This document shows, in pieces, positions 1 to 62,161 of a DNA stretch of 64,000 bases. Position 1 is the first letter of the stretch. The number at the start of each line of letters is the position of its first letter. This stretch comes from Marsupella aquatica (Eukaryota > Plantae > Marchantiophyta), in NCBI GenBank assembly GCA_973895155.1, contig OZ316891.1, forward strand, positions 12,832,771-12,896,770, given 5' to 3'. The position numbers and the translations under genes were made by a program. The notes beneath the pieces are model-generated. The model searched no databases and was not told the origin of the DNA. It worked only from the letters and a program-made list of their open reading frames with translations.

Positions 1-19
1 TACCAAGTTAATAGAAGAA

Positions 20-170
20 ACCCAAGAAACTTTTAAATTTCTCTAACATTTACCAAGGTAATTTAAGAAACCCTTTGGCTACTATGGATAGAATAAACCC
101 AAGAAACTTTTAAACTTCTCTAACATTTACCAAGGTAATTTAAGAAACCCTTTGGCAACTATGGATAGAA
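20..170 (+). repeat. ~77-bp direct tandem repeat (2 copies), member of a dispersed repeat family
   Basis: acccaagaaacttttaaa..ttctctaacatttaccaaggtaatttaagaaaccctttgg starts at ~20 and ~97. A reverse-complement relative lies at ~61550-61590. Confidence 0.85.
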
Positions 171-454
171 GAGTAACAAGTGAAGGTCAAAAACACCATA
201 ATTACTATGGGTAGAGAAATACCAAGTGACTCTAAAACCTTTCAAATACTACTAGAGAGAATAATATTTTGTATGAACTATATGGTATGTCACATATATA
301 ATATAGACATGGAAGTACTAAGGGAAAAGTTTTGCATGGAGAATTACCCTAGAATGTATTCCTATTTGTCTTCCATGAAATTGTCCTAACTATCTTTAAA
401 ATTCATTTTATTTAGATTCCTCCATTTAATCTTTGTACTCTCATCCATCTATTC

Positions 455-2715
455 CCCCCTGAGGATCCTCAGTTTGGTTTTCCAGTTTTCTTCTCCTTTT
501 GCCAATGTATTGTAGCCGGTCGTTTGCCTCCTCCCGTCTCTCGGCTCTTGAGTGCTTCTCGTTTATTGGCCATGGCTAAGTCTTCACCGGGTGTTCGGCC
601 AATTGCTATTGGGGAGGTTTTTCTTTGGCTTGTGTCTCGCACACTTTCCTCGCAGTTTCGCTCTGCACTATCGGATCATCTCTCTCCACATCAGTTTGCA
701 GTTGGCGTTCCTGGCGGTTGTGAGACAGTTATTGCGGGTATTCGAGCTACCTTGGACCTCCACCCTGATTGGGTTGTCCTCCAGGTTGATGTCTCTAACG
801 CTTTTAATACGGTTTCTTGGGCAGCCATTTTTCATGCTTTGAGGGCGGCGGATCCAGACATCCAGTCCCTGATCCCCTTTGTCCGTTGTTTTTATGGACT
901 CGAGGCCCCACTCTTCTATAGTCATCACTCCTCTACAGGTGTGTATACCACTCTTTCCTCTGTAGAAGGTACTCGTCAGGGTGACCCTTTGGGTGGGCCT
1001 CTTTTTGCCATTGCCCATTTTACAACTTTACGGAAAGCCGCCATGGCCCACCCCCAGTGTATCTTCCCCCCCTTTCAGATGACACCCACATCATTGGTCC
1101 TCCTGCCGCGGTTACTTCTGCCCTCGCCACTCTTTCCACCCATTTGATGGGCCTCGGTTTACGAGTTCAGCCTGTGAAGAGTCGTGCATGGAGTCTAGCT
1201 GGGTTACCCTCTGATCTTGCGCTTCCCCCAGGGTTCTTACGTCCAGCCGATGGTCTTCGGGTCCTTGGCTCCCCAGTCGGTACCGCCTCCTTTTGCTCCT
1301 CTTTCATCGTTGACTCTCTACAGGTTGCCTTAGCCTCTACTCCTATGCTCCCTAAGTTAGCAGATTCTCAGGCAGCATTTGGGATGTTGTTGAGGTGCAT
1401 CCACCCTCGTGCATCTTATCTGGCTAGGACGCATCCCCCTACCGAGGATCTTTGTCTCCACCTTCGAGCATTTGATGTCTCCATTCATCAGACCCTGGCC
1501 TCTCTTTTGGGGCCGGGTACGTTGCTCTCATCTCCGTGGCTTCATCGACAACTCAGTCTTCCTATTTTGCAGGGTGGTTTTGGGCTTACTTCCATTAAGA
1601 GCCTTGCACTTTTGGCCTTTTTGGGTGCGTGGGCGGCCACCTTCTCATTGTTGGCCGATCGTTTTCTTATTGAGAATCGCCCTTTTTTACTTTCATCTCT
1701 CATGGAGGTAGAGGAGGGTTCCCTCCCGTTTCAGGTTCATTTGCGTGCAGCGCGGTCCTCATTACCAGATCCCATTCGCGCCGCGTTACCTTCTTTTCAG
1801 GAGTTTTTATCCTTGGATCCCGTTCGTCTTCAGGCAGACCTCCCTGGGCGTATGCACACTTTCACCCTTTCCAGCATCCTCTCCGAGGCACCTGACACGG
1901 ACCGAGCTTGGATTCTTTCTTCCGGAGGGAAGGGCGCAGGTGGATGGCTTCAGGCCAATCCAGTCATTCCTCATTTGCGGATATCTTCAACGGAGTTCTC
2001 CACAGCCATGCGTCTTCGTATGGGGCTGCCCCACCCACTTCTTGCAGGTTTACCCCCTTCTTGCACTTGTGGGAAGCCTTGTGATGCCACAAGTGTCCAT
2101 CTTCTTCGGTGCAATTTGGGAGGTGAAACCATTATTGTTCACGACGTTGTGCGAGATGCGACTGCTCAGGTTCTCTCTGGCTCTTTGGTATGCGTGCGGC
2201 GGGAGGTGGTACTCGAGTTACCTGGTCCTCCATCACAGCGATTACGGGTGGATCTTACCATGGTCCGTGAGGGTCAACGTACATTGGCAGATGTAGTGGT
2301 GGCAAACCCATTGCGCCAAGACATCATTGGGACAACGGCAACTACGGCAGGGGCAGCAGCGTCACGTGCGGCAACAACGAAGGAGGCCAAATATGCTGCA
2401 CGAGCTTCATTCGACAGCTTCCTCCCCCTTGCTCTGGAGCTATTTGGGCGTCTTCATCCTCAGTTTGATGGGCTTCTTCGGCAAGCTGCTCGGGATGTTC
2501 ATGGCCGCATGGGTCCCACCGGACCCCCGCTTTCTATTTTGACCACGCACTTTCGCCAACGCATTTCAGTCACCTTGCAGCGTGCTCAAGCTCGGGCCAT
2601 CTATCGTCGATCTCTTACAGTGGGTGCTAGTGTGCCTCCGCAGCGGCTAGCTCCCCTAGAGGATGTTCCAATCCCACTTGCCGATCTAGCTTTGACCTTT
2701 GATGTGGACCAGTAG
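455..2715 (+). pseudogene. RT-zinc knuckle-RLE polyprotein ORF, 5' truncated, one frameshift at the C7 run 1066-1072
   Basis: RT motifs VRPIAIGE, HQFAVG, DVSNAFN, GTRQGDPLG and LSDD, then LRVLGSPVG and GGFGL. Zinc knuckle CTCG..HLLRC. RLE motifs HD.VRD, RRE, RVD, ADV, KEAKY and FLPLALELFG. ORFs 524-1147 and 1057-2715 join by a -1 shift. Confidence 0.88.
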
Positions 2716-2956
2716 CTTTTTGCCACATTCGCTAGGAATGATGAGGACCTCGGTCCGCTTGGGTTAGTTTTAGTCTCTCTTTCTTGGTTTTTAGAGGTTC
2801 CCTATTGCTCATTTCTTACTTTTAGTTCCTCTTTCTTGGTGTTTAGTGGTTCCCTTTTGCTCACTTCTTTTTCGATTGGTTTTGTCCACTTGGGCCCTCT
2901 TTTGTTTGTTCATTTGTACTCTGATTGGTCCCTTTGTATATAAAAAGTGTGTATAT
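455..2956 (+). mobile_element. 5'-truncated non-LTR retrotransposon, RT + restriction-like endonuclease (CRE/R2-like group)
   Basis: Flanked by a perfect 11-bp direct repeat TCCATCTATTC (444-454 and 2957-2967). The RT frame is open from base 455. T-rich 3' UTR at 2716-2956 contains an internal ~52-bp duplication and ends ...gtatataaaaagtgtgtatat. Confidence 0.9.
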
Positions 2957-3420
2957 TCCATCTATTCAAATGTGCAATTCATCATGGCTCCAATCCTTTA
3001 ATAAAACAAGCTTACATAATCAAGGGGTCCGGGCAATAATTTCATTATTTTTCTCCTTTCTTCAAATTTCATGCAACTTTTAATTTTACTTTCTTTACCA
3101 AGAGCCAAGTAGAGTCCATATCTCAAAATGCCCTTACAGACCCTTCCGTAAATTACAGAAAGATGCAAAGAGAAGATTTTGAAAGAATTAAGGACACTGC
3201 ACTTTAGCTAGCAGCTCAGTGACATTGTCATGTGCTCAAGTTTGAATGATCCATTGTAGAGGTCTAGCCGTGGGTAATATGGGCCTCAGCAATTTATGGC
3301 TTCCCCCTTAGAGTACATCCATGTCCCGTTTGCAGATTTTTTAATGACACTAGATGCATACCATTAGTTTATTGGACCATTGCACTGCATGTGGACCGTT
3401 GGCTCGTCACACGATTAAGG

Positions 3421-3635
3421 TAGATTTTGATCTCTTAGTTTTTCCTATTCCTATTGTAGGTTATTGGGGTTTGCATTTGCCTGAAGGGTCCTGTCTGTGT
3501 CCTCACTTGACCTTTGTTGCTTTTACTCTTTTGTACTGTATTTTAGCATACTTTTAAATGTGTTTTCTTTTTTGCTTTTTAACGTGTTTTCTTTTCGGCC
3601 ACTCTGATTAGCGTCAACTTGTGTGAAGGAAAAGA
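3421..3635 (+). mobile_element. Degenerate non-LTR 3'-tail fragment
   Basis: T-rich tract with tgtgtcctcacttgacctttgttgctttt...tgtact, resembling the 3' end of the 455-2956 element and the 27.9-28.6 kb units. Ends in A-rich gaaggaaaaga. Confidence 0.4.
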
Positions 3636-4943
3636 TGCCAGGAATAGCCCTCACCTAATTTACTATATCACTTTCTGACCATCAGCCCTCCCTAGATTTA
3701 AGAATAACCCTTAGATTCTGGCAAATGGAAGATAAATAACATAGCCAATTCTTACCAGAAGTGGCCAAGACCTTGTAGAAAGGTGGAATTAAAAATCTAA
3801 AAACCTTGTTTAGTAAATTGGTCCTTTTCAACCAAAATATTGAAGGTCCTCGAACACCGCTCTTGGGGAACAGCGTGGGGTCCACTGCCATTGACAAATG
3901 GAGACCAACGAGATTTCTTCAGCCTCAATTATAGCAAGTGCCCGGCAGCCAGCATCAAGGCGACAAGGCTATGCTTTGCTCTCCTCAGCCCTTCCTTGGC
4001 CCTGCCCCACCTGATCAGCTAGCATCCTTGTTTCGTTCCTTCCCTTCCTTCACGAATGGCTGCGGTGGTTTGGAGTTCCACCTAGCCGCCTTTCCAAGGC
4101 CACCAGTCCACTCACACTCCATGACTCCACCTCTAGAGGGGATGATAATTGTCATCATAGGTGTGCCTCTTTCCTCTTTCGAAAGATACTTTGTAACAGC
4201 GTGAGACACACAACAATATCTGCGGCCCAACCACGAAAGGAGGTGACACAAACGTTATAATGATTAGTCTGTACCACAACTCCAACTTACTTTGGCCATG
4301 AGAGCACTTACTTTGGGCTGTATAGTTTATTCTATTTTGTAAGGGACCTGAATTGCCGAATTGGCGACTGCCTCGAGGGTCCAGTATCTACTTATGAATA
4401 TTCCTATATTTATGGACAGCCCTCAGATCTTGAATGTACTAGTGTACCTTATTGTGTACTCCTTATTTTTTGGTAGTTTGTGAGGGATGTATATTAGCGA
4501 CTGCCTCAAGGGTCCAGGAGCAAACAGGTGGCCAATGTTTACTTACGAATAGACCTAAATCAAAGGGTTGGCTTTAGCTCAAAGCAGACTTTGGTGAATC
4601 TGGTCCAAGTTTTTCATCATATTTTCTCGTATCAGTTGCCAATCCTTTGAAGGAGGTCAGATTTTGCATAATATTAGCCAACTAAAACATCACAGCAGCT
4701 GCCCGCAACCCCACACTACTTCCCTTGCTGTCTAAAACAAGAGGGGGACAGAGCCCGAAACCAGACCCCATGCAATCAGGGAGAGAGGTTCAAACCCAAG
4801 AAAGTAGCCAGAGGGCAAGTCAGATGGCATTACATGAAAAGCGCAATGTGTGTTAGAGAGATATATCCCTAAAGAACAAAACTGAAAGACGCTCAAGGCG
4901 CAAATCAGCTGGGGGCCCAGAGCTAGCAACACATAACTGTTTC

Positions 4944-5216
4944 CACTACTAATCGGAATTCAAATTGCAACTTTTAAGTACATTACCACTAAAGATGTTT
5001 GAATTTACAATATTGTCACTATTTTTTCATATTTACAAAAATATAATGGTTTCTGTATATAGTTTCCCGGGTTACCTTGGTAAACTTGTTCTCCATATAT
5101 AAAATTATGATATTTTTATAAATACAAAAAAATAGTGATAATGTGAATTGGAACATCTTTAATGACAAAGTAATTAAAAGTTAATTCAAATTGTCATCCA
5201 TGAATAGTAGGTAGTG
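4944..5216. mobile_element. AT-rich foldback MITE with CACTA-type termini
   Basis: Begins CACTAC (4944) and ends GTAGTG (5216). Long imperfect inverted arms, e.g. cactaaagatgtt...tcactattttttcatatttacaaaaatat vs atatttttataaatacaaaaaaatagtga...aacatctttaatg. No clean 3-bp TSD. Confidence 0.65.
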
Positions 5217-10625: not shown

Positions 10626-13133
10626 ATGGCCGGGAGTACAGGCGGACGGACGAGCTGTAGGATCTCAAGAAGTCTTCTGATTGTGGCGTTGCTGGTGTCC
10701 AGCTGCTTCTTTAATTCTTGGGCTGTTGATAATGGTGCGTCTCACTCGTTTCTGAACTCCAATGACTCTTATCGTACTTCCTTCGTTCAATGCTAAAATC
10801 TGTAGCTGAGGTTTGAAGAACTTAGCATTGGACGGTATCGTCAGTTTTGCACTCAGGACCGCACAGAGCAGAAAGCGGGAAATGCTGTTGGGTGGATCCT
10901 CCAGGGGGGACCTAGAACCGGTCCTGTTGCTCACACCGTACTGAAGGGATAAGTTCGTTAGTAGTGTGGTTCGTCGCCTCGTTACATGGCATTGGACTAG
11001 ACTGCCGTTTGTGTGAATTTTGTCTTCATTTTCATGTCAGTTCCCGGTTTTTTGGCAAGTGTCATGGCATTCGACTGCCTTCTCAGTGAAATATTCTTTA
11101 TATTTTTTTCATAGCAGTTCCCAGTTTTTGGCACCCGTCATCGTGGTAGCTAGACATGTTTTGACTGATTTGTTGTGCCTGCCCCCACTGCTTCCTGCTT
11201 CCGGAGAGATTCTGCAACTGAGATCCAGTGGCACTGGATGCTCCTGTCGAGAGAGACGTCAGATTCATGGAAATCACTCGCCGTCGTTTGTACCTGCTGT
11301 AGTGCTGTGCCTCGTTACTCTTGATTGATTGGACGCTGGTTGTTGTTGTTGTTGTGCAGCTATCAATGAAGAATCTGTAATAGGTATCAACTATGGGCAA
11401 ATTGCAGACAATATACCTTCACCCTCGGCAGCTGTGGCCTTGATTTCTTCAATGAAGATTGGCAAGGTAAGGATTTATGATGCGGATCCCAACATTCTCA
11501 ATGCGTTGGCTAATACGGGCATACATGTTGTGATTTCCGTCACAACAGATCTCATCGGTGGGATTTCTGCCGACCCCAACGTTGCGGATCAATGGATAGC
11601 AAGCAATGTGGTTGCATACCCCAACACCTTGGTGAGATATGTTATCGTTGGAAACGAGCTCTTTTCGTACCCATCGTTAAACGTCACCTGGTATCAAGTC
11701 CTTCCGGCAATGCAGAACTTGCATAGCTCTCTCCTTTCACGAGGATTATCCGACACTGTGAAAATTACCACTTGTTTGGCCATGGACATTCTCCAAAATT
11801 CGTATCCTCCGTCCTCTGGAGCTTTCCGTTCGGACATTGCAACCCCTCTCATGCAACCAATTCTTCAGTTCATCTCGACAACTCAGTCCTATTTCTTCCT
11901 CAATGTGTACCCGTATTTCGCCTGGGCTTCCAATTCTCAACAAATGTCAATAGATTATGCATTGTTTGGGACAGGTTCACTGCAAGTCACAGTCACAGAT
12001 GGGCAGTACACGTACACCAGTCTCCTCGATGCTCAGGTGGACGCGGTGATCGCTGCAATGAACGCTGTGGGCTACGGAAGTACAAATCTCGCCATTGGTG
12101 AGACGGGATGGCCAACACTGGGAGACGCATCGCAGGTAGGTGCGAATCCTGCCTACGCTGCGATGTACAATAGAAGATTGGTGCGGAAAACGCTGGCGAA
12201 TCCCTCTGCTGGGACTCCTAGAAGACCAGGGCAATTCATCCCGACCTACATTTTTGCTCTCTTCAATGAAGATCAGAAGCCCGGCCCGACCACTGAACGC
12301 AACTGGGGTCTGCTTTACCCTAACACTACGCAAGTATACCCCATTGACCTGAGTGGAAAGCTCCCGGACTCTGCTTATCCGCCTCTCGCAGCCCCCGCCC
12401 AGGCGCCCACCACGTCTACACCCAACAACGGTGCTAATTCTCCGGCCCAATCTACGCCTTTTGTTGATAGTGGGACTTGGTGTGTCGCCAACACCGCCGC
12501 GCAGCCTGGGATCACTCAAGTCGGGATGGATTGGGCTTGCAGTACCGGAGGGGCGAATTGCATTCCCATTCAGGTCGGTGGCGCCTGCTACAATCCCAAC
12601 ACCGTTTACGACCATGGATCCTATGCATTCAACAACTATTTCCAACAGTTTAAGACCAAAGGAGGGACTTGTAATTTTAACGGGGCTGCTGTTCTCACCA
12701 CTGTGAATCCAAGTAAGTTCTTCGCGCATCTGATTTGTTTTGTGCCTGGTGACATCACTGTGTGGCTTGTTCTGTTACATTCTGTACGAGTGCTTTTCCC
12801 TTGTCGTCACGATACCTTCAGTTCTGTGTGGAGCAACTTGGCGGATGTCTGGTTTCCATGCGCTGTCTGCGCGGCGGATGTTTCGCAACTTGTGATAACT
12901 GTGTAGCTGCTGGATTCTCTCCGCCAATTTTTCTTGAGGATCTCACAAGCAGCTGATGGCTGGCTGGGATTGATGATGATCTTCCAACGAGCTTTATGGA
13001 AAGGATCAGTGTTAGAGCGGAATTTAGATATTGTGCTTCTGAAGGACCAACCACTGTGACAACTAACAATAACCGTGACATAACTGTAGGTCCGGCAAAC
13101 AACACAGCTTGCGTTTATACGTACATCCCCTGA
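10626..13133 (+). CDS. Glucan endo-1,3-beta-glucosidase (GH17 + X8/CBM43), 3 exons, secreted
   Basis: Exons 10626-10734 (signal-peptide-like LLIVALLVSSCFF), 11360-12712 and 13090-13133, with GT-AG introns and matching phases. Motifs IGINYG, VGNE, NVYPYFAW, IGETGWP, YIFALFNED.KPGP.TERNWGL; X8 WCVA...DWAC...C.PIQ.GG.CY.PN. Confidence 0.93.
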
Positions 13134-27883: not shown

Positions 27884-28597
27884 AAAGACTAAACCTTTGA
27901 ATGGGAAGAGCACACGCATGTACAATGGGTTGCTCATAGACTTTTGTCCTTATTTTTTCTTATTTCTTGGTTCATGGGGTTTGTTGAGTTTAGTGTTTGT
28001 CCACTATGGACCTCTGTTGCTTTAGTCCAGTGCACTTTGTTGGGCTCGTTTTTACAAAGTGGTCCTCTTCATTGAAAACAACTATATATAAGGACTTAAA
28101 CCTTTGAATAGGGCAGGAACTAAACCCACAAGCATGTACTGTAGGTTGATCATATATTTTTTGTTTCTTCTCTTCTACAGGTTTATGGGATTTGTTGAGT
28201 TTCATGTTTTTCTTCTTATTTCTTCACTACAGGTTTATGGCCCGGTTGGTTGAGTTTAAGTTTTGTCCTCTATGGACCTCTGTTGCTTTAGTCCAGTGCA
28301 CTTTGTTGGGCCCTTTGCAATAAATTGGTCTTTTTAATCAAATAAATGTAAAGCCCTATGCACAACGTACATGGGATGGGAACTATACACAGGAATGTAC
28401 TGATATATATTTTAATTATATTATTTTTTCCTTCTTTCTGGGTTTATGGGGTTTCTCTAGTGTCCTATTTTTACTTCTTTCTAGGTTTATTGGGTTTGTT
28501 GAGTTCCTGTTTGTCGTCCATGTACCTCGGATGTTTTCAGTCTGTGTACTTTGTTGGGCCCTTTTCAATAAATTGGTCCTTTTTGTTGAAAGAAAAA
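27884..28597 (+). mobile_element. Three head-to-tail short retro-like units (3'-tail homologues of the RLE element), each preceded by a repeated target-like motif
   Basis: Units ~27940-28085, ~28153-28345 and ~28405-28595 share gggtttgttgagtt..tttgtcc.ctatggacctctgttgctttagtccagtgcactttgttgggc.c....aataaattggtc. The spacer motif recurs at ~27884, ~28090, ~28375 and ~29184. Confidence 0.7.
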
Positions 28598-38969: not shown

Positions 38970-40306
38970 AAGTGCGAGCTATTGCTCTACAGAAGAGAAT
39001 TAAATGGTCCTTCGAAGTAGAAAGGAGCCCTGTGCAACACTTACGAGGCTTTAGCGGTCCATGGTGCTGGGCTTCCGACGCAGTATTCATTAGGGCTGCT
39101 GTGACTGAAACTGGCCATTGAAGAGGAGGTTGAATGAAACTGGCAATTGAAGAAGAGGATTTGCCTTGCCTCAGAAGTTTCACCCAATATTTGCAAGGTC
39201 AGATGATTTGTTTGGGCGGATATCAATACAGTGAAGGAGATGAAATAGAAGTTAGCAAGGCTACCAAATTAAAGAGTCACAGAGTGTACTCTTGGGGTTT
39301 GTTCTATGCTTATAAATAGCTGGTCCAGATTCCAAATAACTACTGGAGGCGTTTAATTAAGTAACTACTCCAGGCTGCTAATGGGTCAAACCCTACCAAT
39401 GTTCAAAACTTCTTCATGTAACCAGAGCAGTTCAATCCTCTTGTGAATTTATAGAAATTCCAGCTGTACAAAGCAATCTTGTATCTCAAACTTTTCAGAT
39501 TGTTCGGTTTTGCCATAAAAAGAAAAGCTGCCTATCACACTCCAGAAGCTACCCCCTTGTGCTGTGCCAGGATTCTCGCACCATCCCTCTGACTCAACAT
39601 CCCTGATTTTAATGTTGTCACTATCTTACCCTTGCCAAAACACAATGCAATACAATGTGATCACAATAGGCTGAACAATATCATATTGACAATACAAGAT
39701 ATAGTTCAATTTGAAATAAATTGTGGACCGTCTTTTACAATACAATAGATTTTGGCCCCATCACTTAACTGAACTAGTTCAGCCTTTAGTTGTTCAGCCA
39801 GTAATTGAACATTATTTTGCTCTACAATCATACCCTTGTAGAGGTTTTGCACTTATCTAACTGTCGTTTAGCTCAAATAGTGCAAAAACCCACCGAGCGA
39901 AAGGCTCGATGGTCGACCTTGCAGTAAACCAGGGTTGTACTTATGGAGTGTGCACTTCGGCAGAGGCGACTGCAATCTGCTGAAGATGTTTACGAGATGA
40001 AACGCATAGAATCGAAAGAGTCAGATTGTGAGAGACAGAGAGCAGGACAGACTAATTGAAGAAATGTGACCGCCATCGGCAGAATCCAGAGCATTGCCAA
40101 TAATTTGCCATCGAAGTAACTTCGACCTCGGGTCCTCGAGAGTCGTCATCAGTCATGACAAGCCCAGACGACGACGCCACTCTCCATCGATCTGCTAGGA
40201 AACTCGGAATCATTCTACAGAAGCGATGATGCGTGATGACATTACTAGCACCGTAACACTAATGTGAACGCCCAACTTGAGGATGCGGAGGAAGGGAGAG
40301 GGCACA

Positions 40307-42881
40307 ATGGCAGAAGAAGGTCCATACAAGAGGGCTGAAGAAGGCAGTTCGTTCGAAAGTATTGTGGCATACTCACAAGCTCTGAAGCAGACGCCGCAGC
40401 GCCTATGGCAGAGGGGAGTTTTGGCGAGTCTGCCAGAAGAGGAGCTGCAGCATGTCAAGGCAAGCTCGGGAGCGGCATTGAGACGGCGCTTGGAGTGGTA
40501 CGAGGTCGTGGGCATGGGCGTGGGTGGGATGGTAGGTGCCGGGATCTTCGTGACCACAGGTAGTGTTGCCAGAAGCATAGCGGGCCCGGCAGTCATTGTC
40601 TCTTACCTCCTGGCTGGGCTCACTGCACTTCTCTCCGCCTTCTGCTACACTGAATTCGCTGTCGAATTGCCCGTTGCTGGAGGAGCTTTCAGCTACCTGA
40701 AAATCACTTTGGGTAAGGTGACACACTCTGTGACTGGGTCTGCATTTGCACAGAGACAGCATTTTGTTCGTCGTCATAGAGCCCTCTGCCAGTCGCTGGA
40801 GGAGAAATTTTTCATTTTGCCTTCTGCTGGAATTGGCTCATTTTTTAAGATTATATTGGGTCATGTCTTGTCATATTCTGAGCATTGGATGATTGACTTC
40901 GACAGGAGAGTTTGCCGCGTATTTCACCGGTGCCAACTTAATTATGGAGTACGTTCTTTCCAATGCTGCAGTTGCGCGTACCTTCTTGCCCTATCTGATA
41001 TCTGCATTCTCGTCAGAGAGTGCAGATGCCTTTAGAATCAAGGCGCCTGGGTTAGCGCAGGGCTTCAATCGTCTGGACTTTGTGGCCTTGTCCCTTGTTG
41101 TACTTATCACGATCGGCCTTTGCTACAGGTTTATCTCCCCCTCTACTACCGATCCTCCATATGACAAATTTATAACATCGTCTTCGGCTATGGATTGCAA
41201 AAACTGTCTAGAAGCTTTTATCCTGGGTCTTGTACTAGAGATTACTTTCCTGATGGGTACTTGTAGTGGTTTCGCTATGTTTTCCTCTCGTGAGTATCTT
41301 CTTCTGCTACAGTCGATGAAAATTTGACTCATGCCTCTCTTGTACTTGGCTGCTTCTTTTGCAGCTCAAAACATAGTGCTGTTTTCAACTTGGCAGTGAC
41401 GGTTGTCCATTTGATATTTATTGTGTTCATTATCGTGGTTGGCTTTTCAAAAGGTGATCGGACCAATTTAATAGAACCAGGGAACAAGAGTAATCTTGGA
41501 GGATTTTCGCCATATGGAGTGAAGGGAATATTAAATGGTGCTGCAATTGTCTACTTTAGCTACATCGGCTATGATGCTGTTTCCACAATGGCAGAGGAGG
41601 CAAAGAATCCAACCACAACAATGCCCATTGGTGTTTCTGGCTCTGTACTGATTGTAACCATCATCTACAGCTTGATGGCCGCAGCTATCTGTTTACTTCA
41701 GCCCTATGATGAGGTACCTCAACCTACATGATTGCACTTCACGCTTTATCTAGTGTTTCGTTTCAGCTTGCTAACATTCACGTGGCATATATGTTTTATA
41801 TAAAAACTCATAGAGCAGATTCCCAGTAGAATGAGTGACCTATGGAGAGTGTCAGTATGGACTTGAATCCTATCATAGCCTCGTGGATAAAACCAGACTT
41901 AAGAAGTTAAATCCACGTCAGTGCTGTGGTTGCAGATAGACCCAAAGGCCCCGTTTGCTAAAGCGTTCAAACAAATGAGAGGCTGGGAGTGGGCATCAAG
42001 TTTTGTTGGTGTCGGAGCAAGCTTGGGCATTCTCACGTCAATAATGGTCGCTATGTTTGGCCAGGCACGATACTTGTGTGTAATAGGCCGTTCTCATGTT
42101 CTCCCACATTGGTTTTCAATTGTCAACCCTGATACTGGTACTCCAGTAAATGCAACAATTTCTCTGGGTAAGTTTCTTCTTGTCTCAGCTGGACGATCTT
42201 GTACAGTCACATTCCAGTTGCATTCAACTATAGATACCTCTGGAGATGCTGCGGATGAAAAAACATTTGCATGAAGTTCGAATTTCAAGCGCTGTGTGCT
42301 GACATTCGAATTGTGTGGTCTGGCCAGGCATTTGTACAGCTGTGATCAGTTTTTTCACTGATGTGGATGTACTTCTCAATATGGTCTCTATTGGGACACT
42401 TTTCGTATTTTATATGGTGGCAAATGCATTGATCTTTCACCGCCATGTAGGACCAAGGGGTGACAACTTGGTCACGACCCTGTCCTTCTTATCTTTTCTG
42501 TCTGCAAGTTCTTTAAGTTTTGTCTCGGTTTGGACATTTTACCCGGGATGTTGGTGGGGTTTGTTACTCTTTGGGGCCATCACAATCATCCTGACAATGA
42601 CCTTCTATTACTCCGTGCCAGCAGTGCACGAACCCAAAGACTGGCAGCTACCTTGTATGTCAATCGTTGCCTCGATGTCCATATTCTTGAATGTTCTTCT
42701 TCTAGGCTCAGTGGACGGACTGGCATTTACCAGGTTCGCAATCTGGAGCGTCATTGCAGTCATATTTTACCTTCTATACGGTGTACATGCTGCACACGAT
42801 GCAGCCGAATCGACTCGGAATAGGGTCTCGTTTGTCAGGCTGGAAAGTATCGAAATGGAGGTGGGAAGAGGTATGGATTGA
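40307..42881 (+). CDS. CAT: Cationic amino acid transporter (APC superfamily, CAT6/7-like), 5 exons
   Basis: Exons 40307 (alternative ATG 40283)-40712, 40906-41128, 41365-41713, 41936-42167 and 42328-42881. Motifs GVGGMVGAGIFV, AGPAVIVSY, CYTEFAVELPVAGGAFSY, FSYIGYDAVSTMAEE, GQARY, SIGTLFVFYMVANAL, FYLLYGVH. Confidence 0.93.
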
Positions 42882-47511: not shown

Positions 47512-50500
47512 ATGATGACAATGTCAGAAGTCCAGGGAGAGGGTGAACAGTCCATTGCCGCAGAGTCCTATGCATTAGAGCACACGCCAACATGGGCTGT
47601 AGCAGTCGTTTGCATCGTCTTCATCGCGCTTTCCCTGCTTATGCAACGTGGCCTCCAACGGCTCGGCACTGTGAGTTGAATTCGATTTTTCCCCCAGTTT
47701 TGTGTCACTAGCTGTATAGAATTCTGATGGAATTCTAATTAAGGAGCGCTTCCGGAGTGGACAGATAATTGTTCAGAGAAGCTGTAAGCTCTACACATTA
47801 AAAGCACGTCCGAGAGAATTATTTTTTGTCAGTGATCAAGTTTGATTTCATCCTGTGACCATAGCATACGGATTGAAGCGATCGTAATTTCGTTGTTGAT
47901 TTTGGTACATGGCAGTGGCTTCTGAGCTCGCACAAAAAACCGCTCTACGAGGCTCTTGAAAAGATGAAAGAAGGTACATCGCCCTTTCGTAAAAGTATTG
48001 TAAATTATGCGATAATCGTGTTCAACTCGTGTTGAACTATTTCATTCATTCTGTGGAGCAACTTTATCGAAGGTCTGACACAACACGATCACTCGGCAAC
48101 GATTTTGCAGAGCTCATGCTGTTGGGCTTCATATCCTTGCTGCTCACGGCTGCTCAGAACCCAATGTCCAGATTATGCATGCCAGCCTCGTGGGCCAACC
48201 AGATGCTTCCGTGCCAATTCCAGATTCTACAGAGCCCGCTTGAAGCCCAGCCTCCGCTTGCTCCGGCTGCAGCTGCAGCAATCCACAACCTCGTCATTCA
48301 CCGCAGTACCCTTCGGTCTAGTGGTAACGCCGAGCAGCCGACCGTGCGCAAACGCGAGGCTCTCAGCTTTCCCAACCACGACACACCACGCCGGAAATTG
48401 TCGGGAGCGGCCAGTCCCAATTTTTGCTCTAAGGTGCGTACACTCGATATCTACATGACACTTCTGATTACATACTCACACTTATTATCTGTAAGGGGAG
48501 ACTTCTTCCATGTCTGATTCTAATTCGCGCAAATTGAGATATCGAAGAAAAAGCATTCAAGAAGTGCTCTGCAGCTGTATCTAGTGTTTTCCTGGACAGG
48601 TACGTAATGGCTGATCTTAGACAGCCTCCTTATTATTATGCTGACTGTCTAGAACATGAACAAAAAAATCGCTGGCAGGGTCGAGTCCCCCTCATGTCCA
48701 CTGAGAGTCTTCATCAGCTCCACATATTCATCTTCGTGATGGCCGTGATTCATGTTTTCTACAGTTGTTTCACCATGCTTTTCGGCTTCACGCAGGTTTG
48801 CCTCCGATACTTCAATCGTCGACCATTACTCATGAATACATTGTAGGGACTTCTCAGAATCTGAATGATCGAGAAAGTAGAGAAAGTAAATTACTTACAT
48901 TCCGTTGTGATATATCGTCCGCCGATCACTGTATGTTTTCTCCTGTGCAGTTGAGAAATTGGAGAAAGTGGGAAGAGGAGACCAATGTGGACAATTACAA
49001 TTATACAGACGGTGATGACTTTCCACATGCTGACTTTAACTGGATCACTTACTTGCTCGCCCTTCCTAGTTGCCATGCACCTTTGAAAATGAGTTTAGGA
49101 AACTAGAACAGACAGACGAGACGAACACTTCTCTCTTGTCTTGATATGGACATAGAGAAGACTACTGGTTGACGAGGTTTTTCGAAATTCCGAAGTCCAA
49201 ATAGTGGTTCTGATTGACTAAGCTAGGACTTTCTATAATTGAGTTTCCACTGCACACTCGGACTGAATTGACGGGCCTGAAGATATTTTCTTGTGATTTC
49301 AGTGACTGGTCAGCAGTGACTGAACTTTGACTTGGATTGATTTCGTTGAGAGCTGCAGAAATCAAGAAATCGTTCAACGAGGAAGCCTTCCGCAAAACAC
49401 CGTTCCGGAAGATGGGATTGGGATCCTTGAGACGCCAGAGCACATTTGTGACCTCTCGCACGATGACTCCATGGGCTGCCACAACATGCGGCATTTGGTT
49501 TGTAAGCGTCTCACTTGAAATTCCAGTTTTCGGACATGTCCTGGATCATTTATTTTCCCCTTCAGAGTAGTCTGAATGTTGATCAGATTCAGACGCTGCC
49601 AATTTTTGCTGCCTTCGAGAACCTTCCAGACTATAACTATTGCACTCTATCCTGAGATAGAAGCTCTTCAATCCCCACGATGATTTTCATGTTCCTTGCC
49701 TTTGAAGGATTTAACTTGGAAGTTCTAATTGTCGAGTTCGTACACTGTTATCTCCTTTAAAATCTGACAGATGATTCATAGTATCTGCTGATTAAAATTC
49801 TGTGGCATCATTCTGGATTTGCACAAAACAATAATTGCTATCAGGCCTTGCACGCAATAGATCCTTGCAATTTTGGCTTCAAAGTTCCAATGAATGCTGC
49901 CCACTCTAAAGCATAGTTCTGAAGAGTTACTTCTGATGTTTCTCGGGTTGTGGCTTTTTGTTTTTTGATCTATAGCTCTAGAAAGTTTGTTTTCCCGAAT
50001 GCAAGTTGGGCAGATTGATCCAGAGCTGTTTCCCCTTAAAGAATATCAAAGAAGTTTGAAGTGTTGATTTGAACAAATGGATGTTTTGCAGAACAGTTTC
50101 TTTCGGCAGTTTGGCAAATCTGTGGCCAAATCTGATTACTTGACCCTTCGGCTTGGCTTCATAAAGGTCTGATGGACTACCTAATGTACTCGTAGACCTA
50201 TTCTTAAAACTCCATTGTGTATGTTTTGGTGCTTGTTTTTTAAAACTTATGAAAAACTTCTCATGATCTATTTGGTTGCCCAAAACTTTCATGCAAATAT
50301 CGTTTCGTCTTTGCTGATTTTTTCATTAATGTTCACTCAGAAAAGAACCACCAGTCATGAGCGGTTAAGCAAATTTGAGGGTGGTTTTTCTATTGTGGAA
50401 AACTTTTGGATTAACTGTATGAAAGCAATCATGACTTGTACACAGCAAAAACTTGAAGCACCAGCCTCCTGGTTGCCAATGATATGCTCTTGATTTCAAT

Positions 50501-53500
50501 TCTTAATTAAAAAGAATGGTTCATTAATTCTTTCAGGCTTAGGCCTACAAGCTTGGATGGGACAAACAGAAGCTCACAGAGCATCTAAGGTTGTCAACAC
50601 AACCCTGATGGAACCAGAGAAGTTAGACTGATAAATGTACAGAGAAAATGTTATAGCAAAGTAGTAAACAATTTTGAATAAAGTTTATGTAAACATCTGG
50701 TGAGATTCAGTCCAGGATACTAAAGTCTATCAGGGCATTTTGGACAACATTGGATGTAATGGGGACTTATTTTTCTCAGATGAGACAAAGTTTTAGCAGT
50801 AGAAAAGTTTTTATAAAGTATGAGAAACTTTCTTTTAGACTATTGTTGACACTTGACAAAATTTATAGATCTGCCTTGGTTTTAAGTATATTTCATGACC
50901 TCGGCATGTGCCAGAACCACAATGCTCCCATGCATTTAAACTTCCACAAGTATATCATGAATTCTCTTGAAGATGATCTCAAGACTGTTATTGGTATCAG
51001 GTAATTCATTGAAAATTTCCTCTAACTCAATGGACTTGTGTGATGCAACCGGTTCCTTATGTCTTTCCTTGAAAAGGCCACTACTTTAGATGTTATGTTG
51101 TTACTCACACTATCCAAGGGGATCTGCTATCGGTCTGTGGCCTAGCCTGTGGTAGTGAGCTTAACCACCATCTAGCCTAACCACACACCCAGCATTTTTG
51201 CTAGATGGCCGTAGGCCGTGAGCAAGTCTGAACTTTTTTCATATACAGGGGACTTTTTTATTGATGGGTGATCTTAGTGCTATCTTGGCCAATTTACCAT
51301 TAACCATAGATAGACATATAAATGACATAAAAAATGATGTACTGGGTGTTTTCAGCACAATTAAGAGCTACTATTGGCAATCACAATCTTTTAAACTTTT
51401 ACATTGCTACCTCTAATTTCAATGGTATTGTGTCTTTTCTGTGGACAGTGGTTACTTGTGGGTATTTGTGATTTTCTTCATGATTCTCAATGTTCATGGT
51501 AATTTCTTATCTTCTATATAAATAATTGAATTGTCCCACAAATGCTGCAGGGTAGTAAACTGTTTTACTGTTAGCTAAGATGAAAACACTAAGGGTGGTA
51601 AACAAGGATAAGAAAAAGATGGATGTATGACACCAAAAAAACTACTAAGGACTTCCTAAACTACATGGAGTCAAACTAAAATATCATGAGACTTTGACTC
51701 AATTTGTGAGGATCAAGTTGCATTCCATATACAAGTATAGCTATCCTTTGGCAGTGCACCACTTTCAAAATCCCAAGTATATCAATTAACAGTCATTCAA
51801 CTAATACTTTTTTTATATAATTGCAGGTTGGTATGCCTATTTTTGGATGTCTTTCATTCCGGTTCTGGTAAGAGCAACATTTCTATCACAAAATTAGGTT
51901 TTGATGGTTTCTAGTGATAGAAAAGGCAATAAGGTTCTAGGAATTATTAGAGGTTTTTCATGCAGTTGAATGATCAAACATGTGAACAGCCCAAATATAC
52001 ACATTGGGGTTCAAGACTTGCTCAATCTTGCATCATCCTCATTCACGGATGAGAGTACTTTGCAAAAACTCGATACAGAGTGTAATTGTTGGACCAAGCC
52101 TAGTTATCTGATCTTATTAGACTTGAGAGTGACTTTGTGAGTGAGTTGACCTATGCACTTGATGGCCCATAGTTACCAAGGAAGATGTAAATGTGCTTTG
52201 TAAGCTTGAGGGGTTAACTCTAAGTACTTTGTAGGATACGGTATGCCATCATGATCTAATTAAATGACGCTGTTTTATCAAGAAAACAATCTAAAAATAT
52301 TCTCATTTTGAATCTTAAATAACCCTTTTTTTTGCTTTAGACAAGATATACAATCAAAGATAGTTTCTATTTTTATCAAGTTGTAAATAAATTATATAGT
52401 TTGTATGTTTTAGGGTTACATTGGTCAAAATTATATTGAAAATGATTATCTTGGATCGCATTTGGTATGTAGTTTTTACTCCTTACCGCCCATAGCTTGT
52501 AAGAGCTTTCAGTTAACTGACCACTGTATCATTGTAAAGGGGAAAGAGTCCAACCCCTTTATTACATATTTTTCTGGATGCAAATTTACTCTAAATTTCA
52601 AGAAATTTTTATTAATGACAATAAACATTGGTATTACCAGAGAGTGGTGAATAAAGGAAAACTGCCCATAGAACCATCATTTACATGTGCTTGGACATAT
52701 GATTACTTGATGACATTAATTTTGGCTCATATTTGATCCTCTTAGCCATGGGAGATGCTAAGAGAAAATTCAAACAGACTCAAAAGGTTTACAAGATGCC
52801 TGGATGAACTCACAAAAACATGATTAAATTATTTATACTCCAATAACACTTCTTACAATTCTTTCAAAGTGCTTTGTTTCTAATTTGCTGCATTGTAACT
52901 TGACCATGTCCATAGTCTCTACAATCAATATTTACAACTATCTGGGCTTTTCCACATTTTGTTAATAGAGTCCAATGTACGGAAATGGGTTACCTGGTAT
53001 CATGAAATTCTCATGAACTGCACTCAATTTATGCTGAGTAGCTAGATGTGCAAGTGGAATCTATACATAGCTACAATGAAATAATCTGCATTGTAACAAA
53101 AATCTGGCTTTTTTCTTAAGTTATGATACTACATTGACCTCATATTAAAGCCAAATTTGTTTTAAATGCTATTATCCATGTATAACCACATATTTTAAAT
53201 CATAAAGGAGGTTTTACTTCTTTGCCAACTATTATTAATAATAACTCTCGAGTACTCTAAAATTTGCAGATTAACCTGGTTATTGGTGCAAAGCTGCAAC
53301 ACATCATAACTCAGCTTGCCATGGAGACAGCTCATGAACATGGGCTTGCTGCGGCACCTATCAAGCCAAGAGATGAGCTTTTTTGGTTCAATAACCCACA
53401 CTTATTGCTCTACCTCATCCACTTTATTTTGTTTCAAGTAAGTGTGTATCATTTCACTTGCATGCATTAAACACTAGGGCATTTCACTTGCATGCATTAA

Positions 53501-56401
53501 AATATAGGGACAATCAAATCTACAGATGCCTTGTTAAAAGATCTCCTTTTCAAACATAGTGCAATGTCAAATGATATCTTCCTACCTTTCAATTTGGACT
53601 CTGAAAACAATGAACATTAATAAATAAGTGTTCACATCAATATGCTTCGTATATTTCTAAGATATGCTTTATAAATCTTTTTCCAGGGTTCATAACGAAC
53701 ATTTTAAAAAATCATTGTTGGAAGCTGAACTTTTTCTAATAATTATTTATGTTTGGCCCAACCCTAAGTGTCCTAGCTGTTGGAATCTATGTCACAGGCA
53801 ATGAGTGTCACCTTGTCCAGTTTATTTGAGGTTTAATATTCTTCTCCATGCCCTTGGGGCCGGATATACTCATGTTCCTAATTTGCATGAAATTATTTGT
53901 TTGATGGGATGTTGCATCTATATGCCCCGCATTACACACTACATTTCGTGCACTACTTGTCTAATGACATGAGCTCACTGTTGTCTCATTTTTTCCAGAA
54001 TGCTTTTGAGCTGGCCTTCTGCATCTGGTTGGTGGTGAGTTTTTGTTTCAAAGATTCTTTTATGAGTTATACTTAGATTTTATGAGTTATACTTAGATTC
54101 TTTTATGAGTTATAACCAGCAATCCAAAATGAGACAAAATGAACTAGATTACTGTTCATGTAAAATCATTCTTGACTTGGTACCCATCTATCTTGTATCT
54201 GCTGTGCAAGGCTACAGTTTCTACATTTCTTGACTTGATACCTACCTACTTTGTATTTGCTGTAATTTCAAAAGGTTGTGTATATCAACTTGGGCACCTC
54301 TTAGAATGATACCTTGCTTGTTTCCCCATAATTGCAGACAACATTTGGATTTAATTCATGTTTCTTTGCTAAACATGGCTTTATCATATCAAGAGTTATT
54401 GTGGGGTAAGCATTCTTCGTCTCCTCGATCTGACTCCATCATATTATAGTAAGTGATGTATACAGTATGCGATCTAGTAAGGGAATCGATGATCAAGTAA
54501 ATGTCTTACATTCCTAAACCTGAAAGACCATAGTCAAGTTGGTACAGATGCATTAAAACTATGGAGGAGTTGAATGTAAATTGATATGATTAAAATGTGA
54601 AGTAAAATAGGTACGTCTAAACTTGTTCAATTACCCGATAGTGCGCTGCCCCCTGTTCAAGGATTTACTATAAACATCCATATCCATACTGTTAACATAC
54701 TTGATCTCATAATGCCCTCCATAACTCATGTTCCTATAACCAAGGAAGTGAACTAAAGCTAGTGATCATGTCAAGGATCCTGGTTGAGACGGTTCACATT
54801 GGATTTTGCAGAATTCTTGCGCAGGTGCTCTGCAGCTACAGCACACTCCCACTTTACGCTCTAGTTTCTCAGGTACTTGACACCCTTCTTCAAATGCTGG
54901 CATTCGTTTTGCAAGGCTTTCCACCGCAAGGTGGTGATTGAAAACGTCACACGAACTTGTGATTAGTATGTTATGACCGAAAACTGGCGAAGATAGCTCA
55001 AGGTTAGCCCATCTTGTGGGACGTCTTCATCCTAATGATTATAATAAACTGGTTGCCAATTGAATAGACCGTGAGTGTTTCAAACCCAGTCTTGTAACAC
55101 GGCAAACCCAGTCTTCCAAAGATGAAAGGTTGTATGATGCTTTGAATGCTTTGTCTGGCTCACCTCGAGCTTCTTGTAAATTGCAGATGGGATCTCACTA
55201 CAAGAAGGCAATCTTTGCTGATCCAGTGTCATCAGCAGTAACCGACTGGCGGAACAAGGCCAAGGCAAACGTCAAGCGAAGGTCAAGTATGGAACTGGAA
55301 CACATCACTGAAGCTGAGGGCAGCTCCCATTCCCACTCTCATTGTCAAAGCCATGATCATGATCATGGACACGATCATGGACACGATCACGATCATGCAC
55401 ACATACACCATCACCATTGCAGCTCTACCTTAGTAGTGGCCTCGGATGGAGAGAGCATTTCACAGACCCACCATAACACCTTTCTAACCCATCCCGTTGA
55501 CACTGCCGAACCTCGAGTGGATGAGACCAAATCTGATCTGATCACCGACAGCCCTAGAGAACTCTGCAGGCAATGTGAAAGACTCAGCCTGAGTCTACAC
55601 ATGGATGCGGGTGAGGTCTGTGAAGGGAAGATTGGGGAAAAGCACGACGCAGATCGAGGCTCCGCATGTCCTCCCAAATCACATCTTCCAGGCAGCGCCA
55701 AAACAAACGCAGTGTATGTCAAGATCTCAAGTGAGGAGACACCTGATGGCTTCCCACATTGGTCGTTTGAGTGTAGTGAATGTAAGAGTCTCAGAGTATT
55801 GACTGAAGAATCCAGCTTACTCAATAATGAAGGAAATTCACAAGTGGGCACTACTGTGCACGAAGGGGATTCTCCCAGACTGGAAGGTGTTCGGGTTCAG
55901 GGCAAGAGGAAGTCGGTATTTCTGAAGATGTCCAGGGCAGAAACTCCGAAAGTGCCTAACACTCCGAAAGGGCCATCGTTGGACAGAATGAGGCGCTTGC
56001 CATCTCGAGAGATTAGAAGTGCAGAAGCTACGCATGGGTTGGAACCCTTCAGACCAGATCTGGACATACCTGAGCTGATGATGTGCACAACGCTACTGAA
56101 TGACCCGAGGGAGGTACTCGAGTTTGCAACGGCGACCTCTGTTTCCTCTAAATCCAGAAGGGCAGCTCCAAGTCCATCTTCACATTCCACTCTTGCAGAC
56201 GCTTCAGTTACAAGCCAGGAAGTCAAATTGGAAACGTCAACCTCCTTTGCTAAGAAGACGTCAGCTGCCAACTTATGTACAAGTTCTACTCCTGGACACA
56301 TTCCAAGTGAAGCGATAGAGCCCGGAGAATCTACATCCTTTACTGCTGGATTTAAAAGTACAAATGTCACTGATGGAGGTTCAAGAGTTCCGAGGGAGTA
56401 G
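47512..56401 (+). CDS. MLO: MLO family 7-TM protein, 15 exons, with a ~400-aa C-terminal tail
   Basis: Motifs [141 protein letters not shown] and CaM-binding IF...V......W...AK. Exons run from 47512-47670 to 55187-56401. Confidence 0.95.
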
Positions 56402-60926: not shown

Positions 60927-61369
60927 TTATTTTACATGATAGTCATCTTGCAAAAATCAAGTTTACTTAATCTATTTTTTGCCAGAAGTTGGAGGAGACC
61001 TCCAGTAGACGAGAGAGTGGTGGCCTATTTCAACACAAAACATGTTTTGGGGCAATTTGCCTCCTGTAAAAAAATTTCTTCATAATGTTGTGTCTCAGAT
61101 TTAAATTAGTTGGAGTACCCATTGGTTATGTAAATTTGATGTTATTTAACTAGGCTGAGCAATGAAGAGTTGCAGATTGGATTAGGTTTACATATGGAAA
61201 TGAGAATACAAAAATTATATGGAGGAGCCCGAATGAAGTGTGTTTTACGGGACACTTTCAATTTATTGAAAACAAAGAGGAGGTCATTCCTGGTACAATC
61301 CATACAAAACAATCCCTTGGTAACTCCATGTCCATTGAGTATGCACATTCATTGCAAAAACATTTCCTT

Positions 61370-61590
61370 TGTACATAGTAGTATGAAGGGTTTCTTACAT
61401 TGCCTTGATGTTTTTTGTCCATAGTAGTTGAAAGGCTTCTTATATATCTTTGTTACTCCTCTTACCATAGTGAGTTTCTTATATTTCTTTGTCATTTCTC
61501 TCTCCCTAGTAATTGACGGGTTTCTTATGCTCTCTTGTTACTCCTCTAACCATAGCCAAAGTGTTTCTTACATTACCTTGGTAAATGTCA
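61370..61590 (-). repeat. Diverged copies of the repeat family seen at 20-170
   Basis: ccatagccaaagtgtttcttacattaccttggtaaatgt is close to the reverse complement of acatttaccaaggtaatttaagaaaccctttggct. Sub-repeats gtttctta.at are present. Confidence 0.65.
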
Positions 61591-62161
61591 CAAAAGTTGA
61601 CGAGTTTGCTTCTGCCCATGGTTATGTCCACAAAAAAATCCAATTAAATAAAATAATCTACCAAAAGACACTCATATATCAATCACAACCCATCCAAAAG
61701 TCACTTTCTTTACCCCCTGGTTTGCCCCTTCCATTGCTTACTTGAAATGGTGCCTTTCAATTTTCTTTGTTTTCACAGTTACAACATTTTTTCTTTGCCT
61801 TGGCTCAAACACAAAAAAAATCATGTTTGATTTTTCTTGCAGAATTAATTGCTATTAATTGCTCTTGTTTGTGACCAATAGTGTTCATCTGGTTTCACTT
61901 GTTTTCAAAGATTTTGGAATGAGCCCAGGGCCTCTAATTCCTCCCTGTTTCCTGAAATGGCCTGCATATTTTTTTCCAGACCACACTTTCTGCAGGGAAA
62001 CAATGTACATTAAAAGTTCTACTGGATTTGCCTTCCTCACTTGGGAATTATTGCACGTTGAGTTATTGATATTTGGGCTTCTGAAGGTGTGGTAATTTGA
62101 ATTGACTTTGTTGCACTGGTGGCCATGGTTAGGTGGCCAACACTTCAACAAATTATAACTA

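What the first reader, a model, noticed from the sequence alone, without database searches (positions are those of the whole stretch)
444..2967. Young RLE-type (CRE/R2-like) non-LTR retrotransposon in a plant, with a defined 11-bp target duplication
Seen: a single RT-CCHC-RLE frame, open from the base right after the left TSD with only one frameshift over ~2.2 kb, and identical TSDs (TCCATCTATTC), which points to a recent insertion. Known: RLE-clade elements (CRE, R2, R4, NeSL) are often target-site-specific, whereas seed-plant LINEs are mostly APE-type L1/RTE. Inference: an active full-length master copy with an N-terminal DNA-binding region may exist elsewhere in this genome and could be an uncharacterised site-specific TPRT integrase.
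Basis: partly seen in the sequence, partly recalled or inferred. Interest (0 to 1): 0.78.

Follow-up and report, generated by a model that had tools for sequence, protein, structure and literature searches.

The report
Dead R2-like jumping gene in liverwort
This is a broken, front-truncated copy of a jumping gene of the R2/CRE type (reverse transcriptase plus a restriction-like nuclease), one of likely hundreds in what is probably a liverwort genome, and its sister copies sit in varied DNA, so it is likely not the site-specific integrase first proposed.

Summary
Observation confirmed: an 11-bp target duplication (444-454, 2957-2967) flanks a 2.5-kb RT-CCHC-RLE frame with one frameshift. The closest named relatives are multi-copy proteins of the liverwort Calypogeia fissa (73% identity). 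A family profile and a predicted fold match R2 proteins better than L1 ORF2p. The copy is dead: 5'-truncated by at least 159 codons, with a frameshift beside the RT catalytic aspartates that most family depth does not share. Contigs of four public runs show a high-copy family (about 60-600 copies) with a sharp 3' end. Flanks of other copies agree about as much as random DNA apart from a short TCCC-like start, so a long fixed target is not supported. 'Young' is overstated: at least 28 private substitutions, mostly at CG/CHG sites, and the same junction in 3 of 4 runs from two studies. It landed inside another repeat whose empty site is visible. CRE-clade membership fits motif spacing but could not be tested on a tree with named CRE elements. 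The scan noted the same kind of element before in a moss (e1-9585534). What remains interesting is a little-described RLE LINE lineage in streptophyte algae and seed-free plants.

The parts
444..454 (+). Left target-site duplication; its last 6-8 bases likely double as 5' microhomology with the element
   Evidence: in-frame codons H-L-F against D-L-F in P0212
455..2956 (+). 5'-truncated RLE-type non-LTR retrotransposon copy (52% GC against 43% in the rest of the window)
455..1069 (+). ORF remnant, first piece: N-terminal part of RT; starts at residue 160-162 of the 915-aa Calypogeia protein P0212
1065..1071 (+). One-base frameshift in a C-run just before the RT catalytic aspartates; about half to three quarters of family depth at this place reads without it
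   Evidence: table 4; P0001 and P0212 read through unbroken
1072..2715 (+). ORF remnant, second piece: LSDD catalytic motif (DD at 1078-1083), rest of RT, linker, zinc knuckle, RLE, stop at 2713-2715
2062..2112 (+). CCHC zinc knuckle (C-x1-C-x9-H-x3-C)
2140..2439 (+). Restriction-like endonuclease core: VHD-x19-E-x13-RVD-x12-D-x29-K
   Evidence: profile stretch aligns with the R2 RLE, E 4e-6
2716..2956 (+). T-rich 3' UTR (114 T of 241) with a 52-bp tandem duplication (2764-2869); no poly(A); family sequence ends sharply at 2956-2958
   Evidence: no structure beyond shuffles, z -0.21
2957..2967 (+). Right target-site duplication; its first T is shared by most family copies laid
   Evidence: table 8
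1..443 (.). Left part of an unrelated dispersed repeat into which the element inserted
   Evidence: high depth at 1-381; second copy at about 61610-61200 on the minus strand
2968..3055 (.). Right part of the interrupted repeat
61090..61610 (-). Diverged paralog of the host repeat that runs across the insertion point without the element (empty site)
   Evidence: 23 of 29 identical in the block across the junction, 32 of 51 in a later block
3200..3624 (+). Older, decayed 3' fragment (ORF end plus 3' UTR) of the same lineage, about 250 bp downstream
   Evidence: local score 168.5 against shuffle maximum 86.5 of 200; weak tblastn hits

Best explanation
This is a 5'-truncated, frameshifted copy of a multi-copy non-LTR retrotransposon with RT, CCHC knuckle and restriction-like endonuclease, likely of the CRE group and likely in a liverwort, which likely inserted by target-primed reverse transcription at a site with little more than a short sequence preference. 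Inferred steps: a full-length copy elsewhere made the protein; its RLE nicked the bottom strand next to the first base of the future duplication; RT copied the RNA from its T-rich 3' end; copying stopped after about 2.5 kb where the cDNA could pair with 6-8 bases of the target overhang; a second nick 11 bases away and fill-in gave the duplication. Shown: the copy lacks the N-terminal region, sits inside another repeat, and has since gained a frameshift and at least 28 substitutions. It cannot make a whole protein.
For: TSD unique and unlikely by chance. Empty site seen in a window paralog, in 2 contigs of run X4 whose loose letters resemble the left flank and in joints 436 or 453 to 3000 in 3 and 4 of 4 runs. 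73% identity over 753 columns to Calypogeia P0212, which has 159 more residues upstream; sister to it at 100/100 support. Profile scores R2 141 bits with RT and RLE stretches, L1 ORF2p 57 bits with RT only; model of P0212 (pLDDT 87) hits R2 structures at ranks 1-7. One X1 contig at the frameshift site has depth 22,389 against 56-75 for single-copy contigs. Depth is roughly 2-3 times higher in the 3' half in X2-X4. Flank agreement near random. 20 of 28 private changes are C>T or G>A, 14 of those 20 at CG/CHG against a 33% background, p 0.0008. Junction contig 2935-3026 with no difference in X1, X2 and X4 at single-copy depth.
Against: No named CRE element is in my trees. The flank test rests on 2-9 contigs per group, 24 of 117 loose-end rows were shown, and the runs share the same insertions, so they are not independent. 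Copies inside a high-copy target could hide in short contigs. Consensus flanks at 2957 begin TCCC in 3 of 4 runs and TCAC in the fourth; a random 5- or 9-contig consensus begins TCCC in 40 of 20000 draws, so some sequence choice is real. The right-flank match to the paralog alone is borderline (78.5 against shuffle maximum 77). Host lineage is inferred from the element's relatives, not from host genes. 5' microhomology is inferred from a protein relative only.
Confidence: 0.8

Rival explanations
1. The family is truly site-specific for a repeated target (for example an RNA gene or the host repeat), and the scattered copies are leakage.
For: Most CRE, R2, R4 and NeSL elements are target-specific (PMC4640811, introduction). 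This copy sits in a high-copy repeat. Short TCCC-like start of flanks.
Against: Flanks beyond the first few bases look random. No Rfam match at E up to 1 in window 1-5000. Depth just past the 3' end falls from tens of thousands to under 500, and the contig joining element to this repeat has single-copy depth. The share of laid material running on into unlike sequence is only 0.01-0.02.
Confidence: 0.1
2. The insertion is very recent and the family is transposing now.
For: Identical TSDs; no stop codons in either frame. Hundreds of copies share exact words at the RT site, so the family had a recent burst.
Against: At least 28 private substitutions (1.1%, a lower bound since 40 of 787 rows were shown), enriched at methylation contexts. 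Junction shared by three runs of two studies. At about 1% divergence two 11-bp copies usually stay identical, so the TSD dates little (inference).
Confidence: 0.15
3. It is an RLE element outside CRE (HERO-like non-specific, or a separate clade).
For: Non-specific insertion is typical of HERO. No poly(A) tail, whereas trypanosomatid CREs generally have one (PMC12278014 passages). No CRE reference in my trees.
Against: RLE spacing fits the published SLACS/CRE pattern at 5 of 7 intervals and misses by one residue at two. Relatives have 1-2 C2H2 fingers and no Myb hit in Pfam. TSD present. Only 15-16% identity to R2 structures. The RT motifs look CRE-like to me (recalled, no call).
Confidence: 0.2
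4. The GC-rich element came recently by horizontal transfer or is an assembly contaminant.
For: 52% GC against 43% in the rest of the window.
Against: High copy number, junction contigs with host DNA, an older decayed fragment beside it, and nearest named relatives in other liverworts, a lycophyte and Closterium.
Confidence: 0.04

Closest known systems
CRE group non-LTR retrotransposons (CRE1/2, SLACS, CZAR, Cnl1, MoTeR, FoTeR)
   Same: Single ORF with RT then CCHC and RLE; RLE spacing close to the published pattern; 1-2 N-terminal zinc fingers in relatives; TSD formed.
   Different: No spliced-leader or telomere target; hundreds of dispersed copies with near-random flanks; no poly(A) tail; (R/K)PD reads RVD and RHD reads VHD across the liverwort family; land-plant host.
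R2 retrotransposons (R2Bm 8gh6, R2Tg 9nl3/9dou, Platysternon R2 9nl2)
   Same: Best solved-structure matches by profile and fold, covering RT and RLE; same TPRT architecture.
   Different: 15-16% identity; not in 28S rDNA; no Myb hit in relatives; 11-bp duplication rather than the target deletion common in R2.
Unannotated RT proteins of Calypogeia fissa (CAM6082257.1 and 11 cluster mates), Riccia fluitans, Diphasiastrum complanatum and Closterium
   Same: Same lineage; 73% identity to the Calypogeia protein; multi-copy in Calypogeia.
   Different: Deposited as unnamed or hypothetical proteins; this copy is shorter and frameshifted.
HERO clade
   Same: RLE elements that are largely not target-specific.
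   Different: No tested sequence link; resemblance is in behaviour only.

Membership tests
RLE-type (early-branching) non-LTR retrotransposon | Non-LTR RT domain | tested here: met
   RVT_1; top PDB profile hits are R2 and L1 RTs
RLE-type (early-branching) non-LTR retrotransposon | CCHC knuckle followed by PD-(D/E)xK-like nuclease C-terminal to RT | tested here: met
   Motifs and spacing; profile aligns with R2 RLE, E 4e-6; fold match to R2
RLE-type (early-branching) non-LTR retrotransposon | No APE endonuclease upstream of RT | tested here: met
   No APE family in 8 longer relatives scanned with Pfam; the window copy itself lacks this region
RLE-type (early-branching) non-LTR retrotransposon | TPRT marks: fixed 3' end, 5' truncation, TSD | tested here: met
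CRE clade | RT groups with CRE1/2, SLACS, Cnl1, MoTeR | not testable with these tools
   No named CRE sequence was returned by any search; trees hold only homologs and two outgroup rows
CRE clade | RLE spacing C(1-3)C(7-8)H(3-4)C(9-10)RHD/N(19-33)E(9-21)R/KPD(12-14)D/E | tested here: met
   Observed 1, 9, 3, 8, 19, 13, 12: five intervals in range, two off by one; catalytic acidic residues present. The pattern may not be exclusive to CRE.
CRE clade | One or two N-terminal zinc fingers | tested here: inconclusive
   Region missing in this copy and in P0212; pattern found in 6 of 22 relatives checked, many of them partial; Pfam support weak
CRE clade | Insertion into one specific repeated target | tested here: not met
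   Flank agreement near random; small sample; the cited sources say 'most', not all, CRE elements are specific
CRE clade | 3' poly(A) tail (general in trypanosomatid CREs) | tested here: not met
   Family ends in a short TA/GT-rich stretch at 2956-2958
R2 clade | Insertion at the conserved 28S rDNA site | tested here: not met
   No Rfam match in 1-5000; varied flanks
R2 clade | N-terminal zinc finger(s) plus Myb domain | tested here: inconclusive
   No Myb hit in 8 relatives, but Pfam may miss R2-type Myb; the Myb criterion is recalled
L1 / RTE clades | N-terminal APE and no C-terminal RLE | tested here: not met
   RLE present; L1 ORF2p scores 57 bits against 141 for R2. No RTE reference was available.

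The most novel reading that the evidence does not exclude
A vertically inherited RLE LINE lineage runs from zygnematophyte algae through liverworts to lycophytes (and mosses, by an earlier unchecked scan note), has given up long-target specificity for a 3-5 base TCC-like motif possibly chosen by pairing with the RNA 3' end, and recently amplified to hundreds of copies. An intact master would be a plant-native RT-RLE enzyme whose landing site might be steered by the template's 3' end.
Probability: 0.3. Interest if true: 0.62.

Novelty: new member of a known kind. Interest (0 to 1): 0.36.

Why it matters
The copy itself is ordinary TE debris. The family matters modestly: RLE LINEs are known mainly from animals, fungi and protists and are prized as site-specific insertion tools, and avian R2 is now being brought into plants (PMC13580325 passage). 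A high-copy RLE family native to seed-free plants widens the known host range and offers hundreds of natural insertions with which to measure how an RLE element behaves once strict targeting is lost.

Tried and rejected
No whole genome is held, so tblastn for full-length copies could not be run. Scan of metagenome contigs gave 2 loci with 48-residue matches at 46-48%; the family profile found nothing significant in them. Scans of viral and prokaryotic genome contigs found no relative. No RNA holder listed; no evidence either way on expression. Single-sequence PDB search of the second piece found nothing meaningful. Pfam has no hit on the RLE part. 3' UTR folds no better than shuffles. Rfam: nothing in 1-5000. 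Atlas searches gave only unnamed RVT_1 or unnamed clusters and placed a host gene in Streptophyta only. Third cluster look-up named none of 10 distant relatives by organism. In the quick tree the window and Calypogeia joined Riccia at 93 and all Closterium rows at 95; in the careful 47-row tree the Riccia join was unresolved and only part of Closterium joined at 94/87, so vertical descent is suggested, not shown. Trees left out 47 of 237 RT hits covering under 70% of the profile, including Diphasiastrum, sponge and Diplonema rows. For the mutation count I dropped the row at 1069 (indel artefact) and rows outside the element, and added 2924. Ten paper searches listed no paper describing RLE/CRE LINEs in liverworts; three classification or survey papers were not held and Repbase/Dfam could not be consulted, so absence from print is not established.

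Full report
Observation. The 11-mer TCCATCTATTC stands at 444-454 and 2957-2967 and nowhere else in the window; 2 of 3000 random position pairs gave an exact repeat that long. Between them two stop-free frames (416-1147, 985-2715) encode an RT (RVT_1, E 4.7e-7), a CCHC knuckle (2062-2112) and an RLE core with spacing C1-C9-H3-C8-VHD-19-E-13-RVD-12-D-29-K. The frames switch in a C-run near 1065-1071, just before the LSDD catalytic motif; natural relatives P0001 and P0212 read through this point unbroken. A 241-nt T-rich 3' UTR follows, without poly(A).

Relatives and host. The closest named proteins come from the liverwort Calypogeia fissa: a 12-member cluster including the 915-aa P0212, 73% identical over 753 columns. 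Riccia fluitans, the lycophyte Diphasiastrum and several Closterium strains follow. The window copy starts at P0212 residue 160 and near residue 315 of the 1096-aa P0057 (estimated), whose N-terminus has a C2H2-like finger; 6 of 22 relatives checked show one or two such fingers. The window and P0212 are sisters at 100/100 within an 11-row set (100/99) that holds both Riccia rows. The window also has plant genes (GH17-X8 glucanase, amino-acid permease, MLO). A liverwort host is an inference from the element, not from host genes.

Kind of element. A profile of 20 relatives scores R2 proteins at 141 bits, with separate RT and RLE stretches, and L1 ORF2p at 57 bits, RT only. The AlphaFold model of P0212 (pLDDT 87, pTM 0.86) matches R2 structures at ranks 1-7 with 15-16% identity and L1 ORF2p lower. 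So it works like R2/CRE. The RLE spacing fits the SLACS/CRE1/2 pattern quoted in PMC12857005 (passages) at five of seven intervals and is off by one at two. CRE elements form TSDs (PMC3636483 passages) and carry 1-2 zinc fingers and generally a poly(A) tail (PMC12278014 passages). No named CRE sequence was available for a tree, so CRE is likely but not shown.

The insertion site. Both flanks belong to an unrelated dispersed repeat. A diverged paralog at about 61610-61090 on the minus strand runs across the site without the element: 23 of 29 identical in the block over the junction, although the right flank alone scores only 78.5 against a shuffle maximum of 77. Run contigs agree: joints from 436 or 453 to 3000 in 3 and 4 of 4 runs, and 2 X4 contigs that enter at 2960 from sequence like the left flank. 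The last two codons of the left duplication read L-F in frame, as P0212 does at the same place, which suggests that reverse transcription ended at a 6-8 base microhomology (inference). That would explain why the frame looks open right from the duplication.

Family size and targets. Seven runs from five studies hold part of the stretch; I laid the four best. Summed depth over the element is in the thousands to hundreds of thousands against tens in unique flank, and the tool warns that summed depth is no copy number. One single X1 contig at the frameshift site has depth 22,389 against 56-75 for single-copy contigs, about 300-400 copies; X2 and X4 give 60-100 per contig and about 300-600 if summed. 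Depth is higher in the 3' half, as expected from 5' truncation. The family ends sharply at 2956-2958. Loose ends behind it, that is other copies' flanks, agree 0.48-0.67 over 30 letters in eight groups of 2-9 contigs; random window DNA gives 0.44-0.63. Six groups are within the random range, two exceed it slightly (p 0.035 and 0.017). A ninth row had a single contig and was not scored. The consensus at 2957 begins TCCC in three runs and TCAC in one, which chance gives in 40 of 20000 draws for 5 or 9 contigs; the window's own duplication begins TCC. So there is no long fixed target in what I could see, but a short pyrimidine-rich motif is likely, either as nuclease preference, as pairing with the RNA 3' end, or as a variable tail of the element. 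Limits: few contigs, 24 of 117 rows shown, runs not independent, and copies in a high-copy target could be under-seen.

Age. At 28 positions the window differs from most or nearly all family depth (1.1%, a lower bound). Twenty are C>T or G>A, 14 of them in CG or CHG context against a 33% background (p 0.0008), the pattern of methylation-driven decay (established knowledge). The frameshift is absent from about half to three quarters of the depth at that place. The right junction contig (2935-3026) is identical and at single-copy depth in X1, X2 and X4, two studies; one of these may be the window's source, and X3 was not shown. The copy is therefore fairly well kept but not new; the family had a recent burst, since many copies share exact words. 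Present activity is untested.

Mechanism. Inferred from R2/CRE knowledge: TPRT by a full-length master in trans or cis, bottom-strand nick, priming on the T-rich 3' end, early termination at microhomology, second nick 11 bases away, fill-in. Shown: anatomy, truncation, duplication, empty site, copy number range, flank diversity, decay.

Novelty. RLE LINEs are a known kind; most CRE, R2, R4 and NeSL members are target-specific and HERO mostly not (PMC4640811, introduction read). Ten searches (listings and abstract starts seen) showed no description in liverworts; two plant reviews checked by passages do not mention native RLE LINEs (PMC11630846; PMC13599430), and passages of PMC5348765 mention RLE only for oomycete Utopia. 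But Repbase/Dfam and three key papers were out of reach, so families like this may already be catalogued. Of the FoTeR supplements I read file 1 and searched seven files by term; they gave accession lists, not a plant CRE. Verdict: a real, dead copy of a new member of a known kind; the site-specific integrase reading is not supported; interest 0.36.

Noticed in passing
window 3200-3624 (+): Older decayed 3' fragment of the same lineage, same orientation, about 250 bp downstream of the element; shows an earlier wave of insertion.
   Followed up: partly
window 27930-28572 (+): Three degenerate units about 210-260 bp apart, each resembling the element's 3' UTR (scores 82-100 against shuffle maxima 61-80); could be a SINE-like or non-autonomous partner, or a tandem array born from a 3' end. 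All are T-rich, so part of the score may be compositional.
   Followed up: partly
window 1-443, 2968-3055 and 61090-61610 (-): Unclassified high-copy dispersed repeat with a 77-bp internal duplication (11-172); no coding match looked for.
   Followed up: partly
window 3684-3800: Another high-copy repeat begins here, with many loose ends at 3688 and 3728 in run contigs.
   Followed up: no
window 11329-12906, 40268-42881, 47993-56401 (+): Ordinary plant genes: GH17-X8 glucanase, amino-acid permease, and an MLO gene (Pfam hits); the long His-rich frame at 55064-56401 may be the MLO last exon (not tested).
   Followed up: partly
proteins P0054, P0055, P0056, P0069: Very long predicted proteins (3700-5900 aa; P0054 is from Closterium) with 2-8 matched stretches of this RT, perhaps gene models spanning tandem copies, which could point to a tandem target in that alga.
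   Followed up: no
protein P0023: Distant relative with a zinc finger and an RNase H-like domain upstream of RT, an arrangement reported for oomycete Utopia.
   Followed up: no
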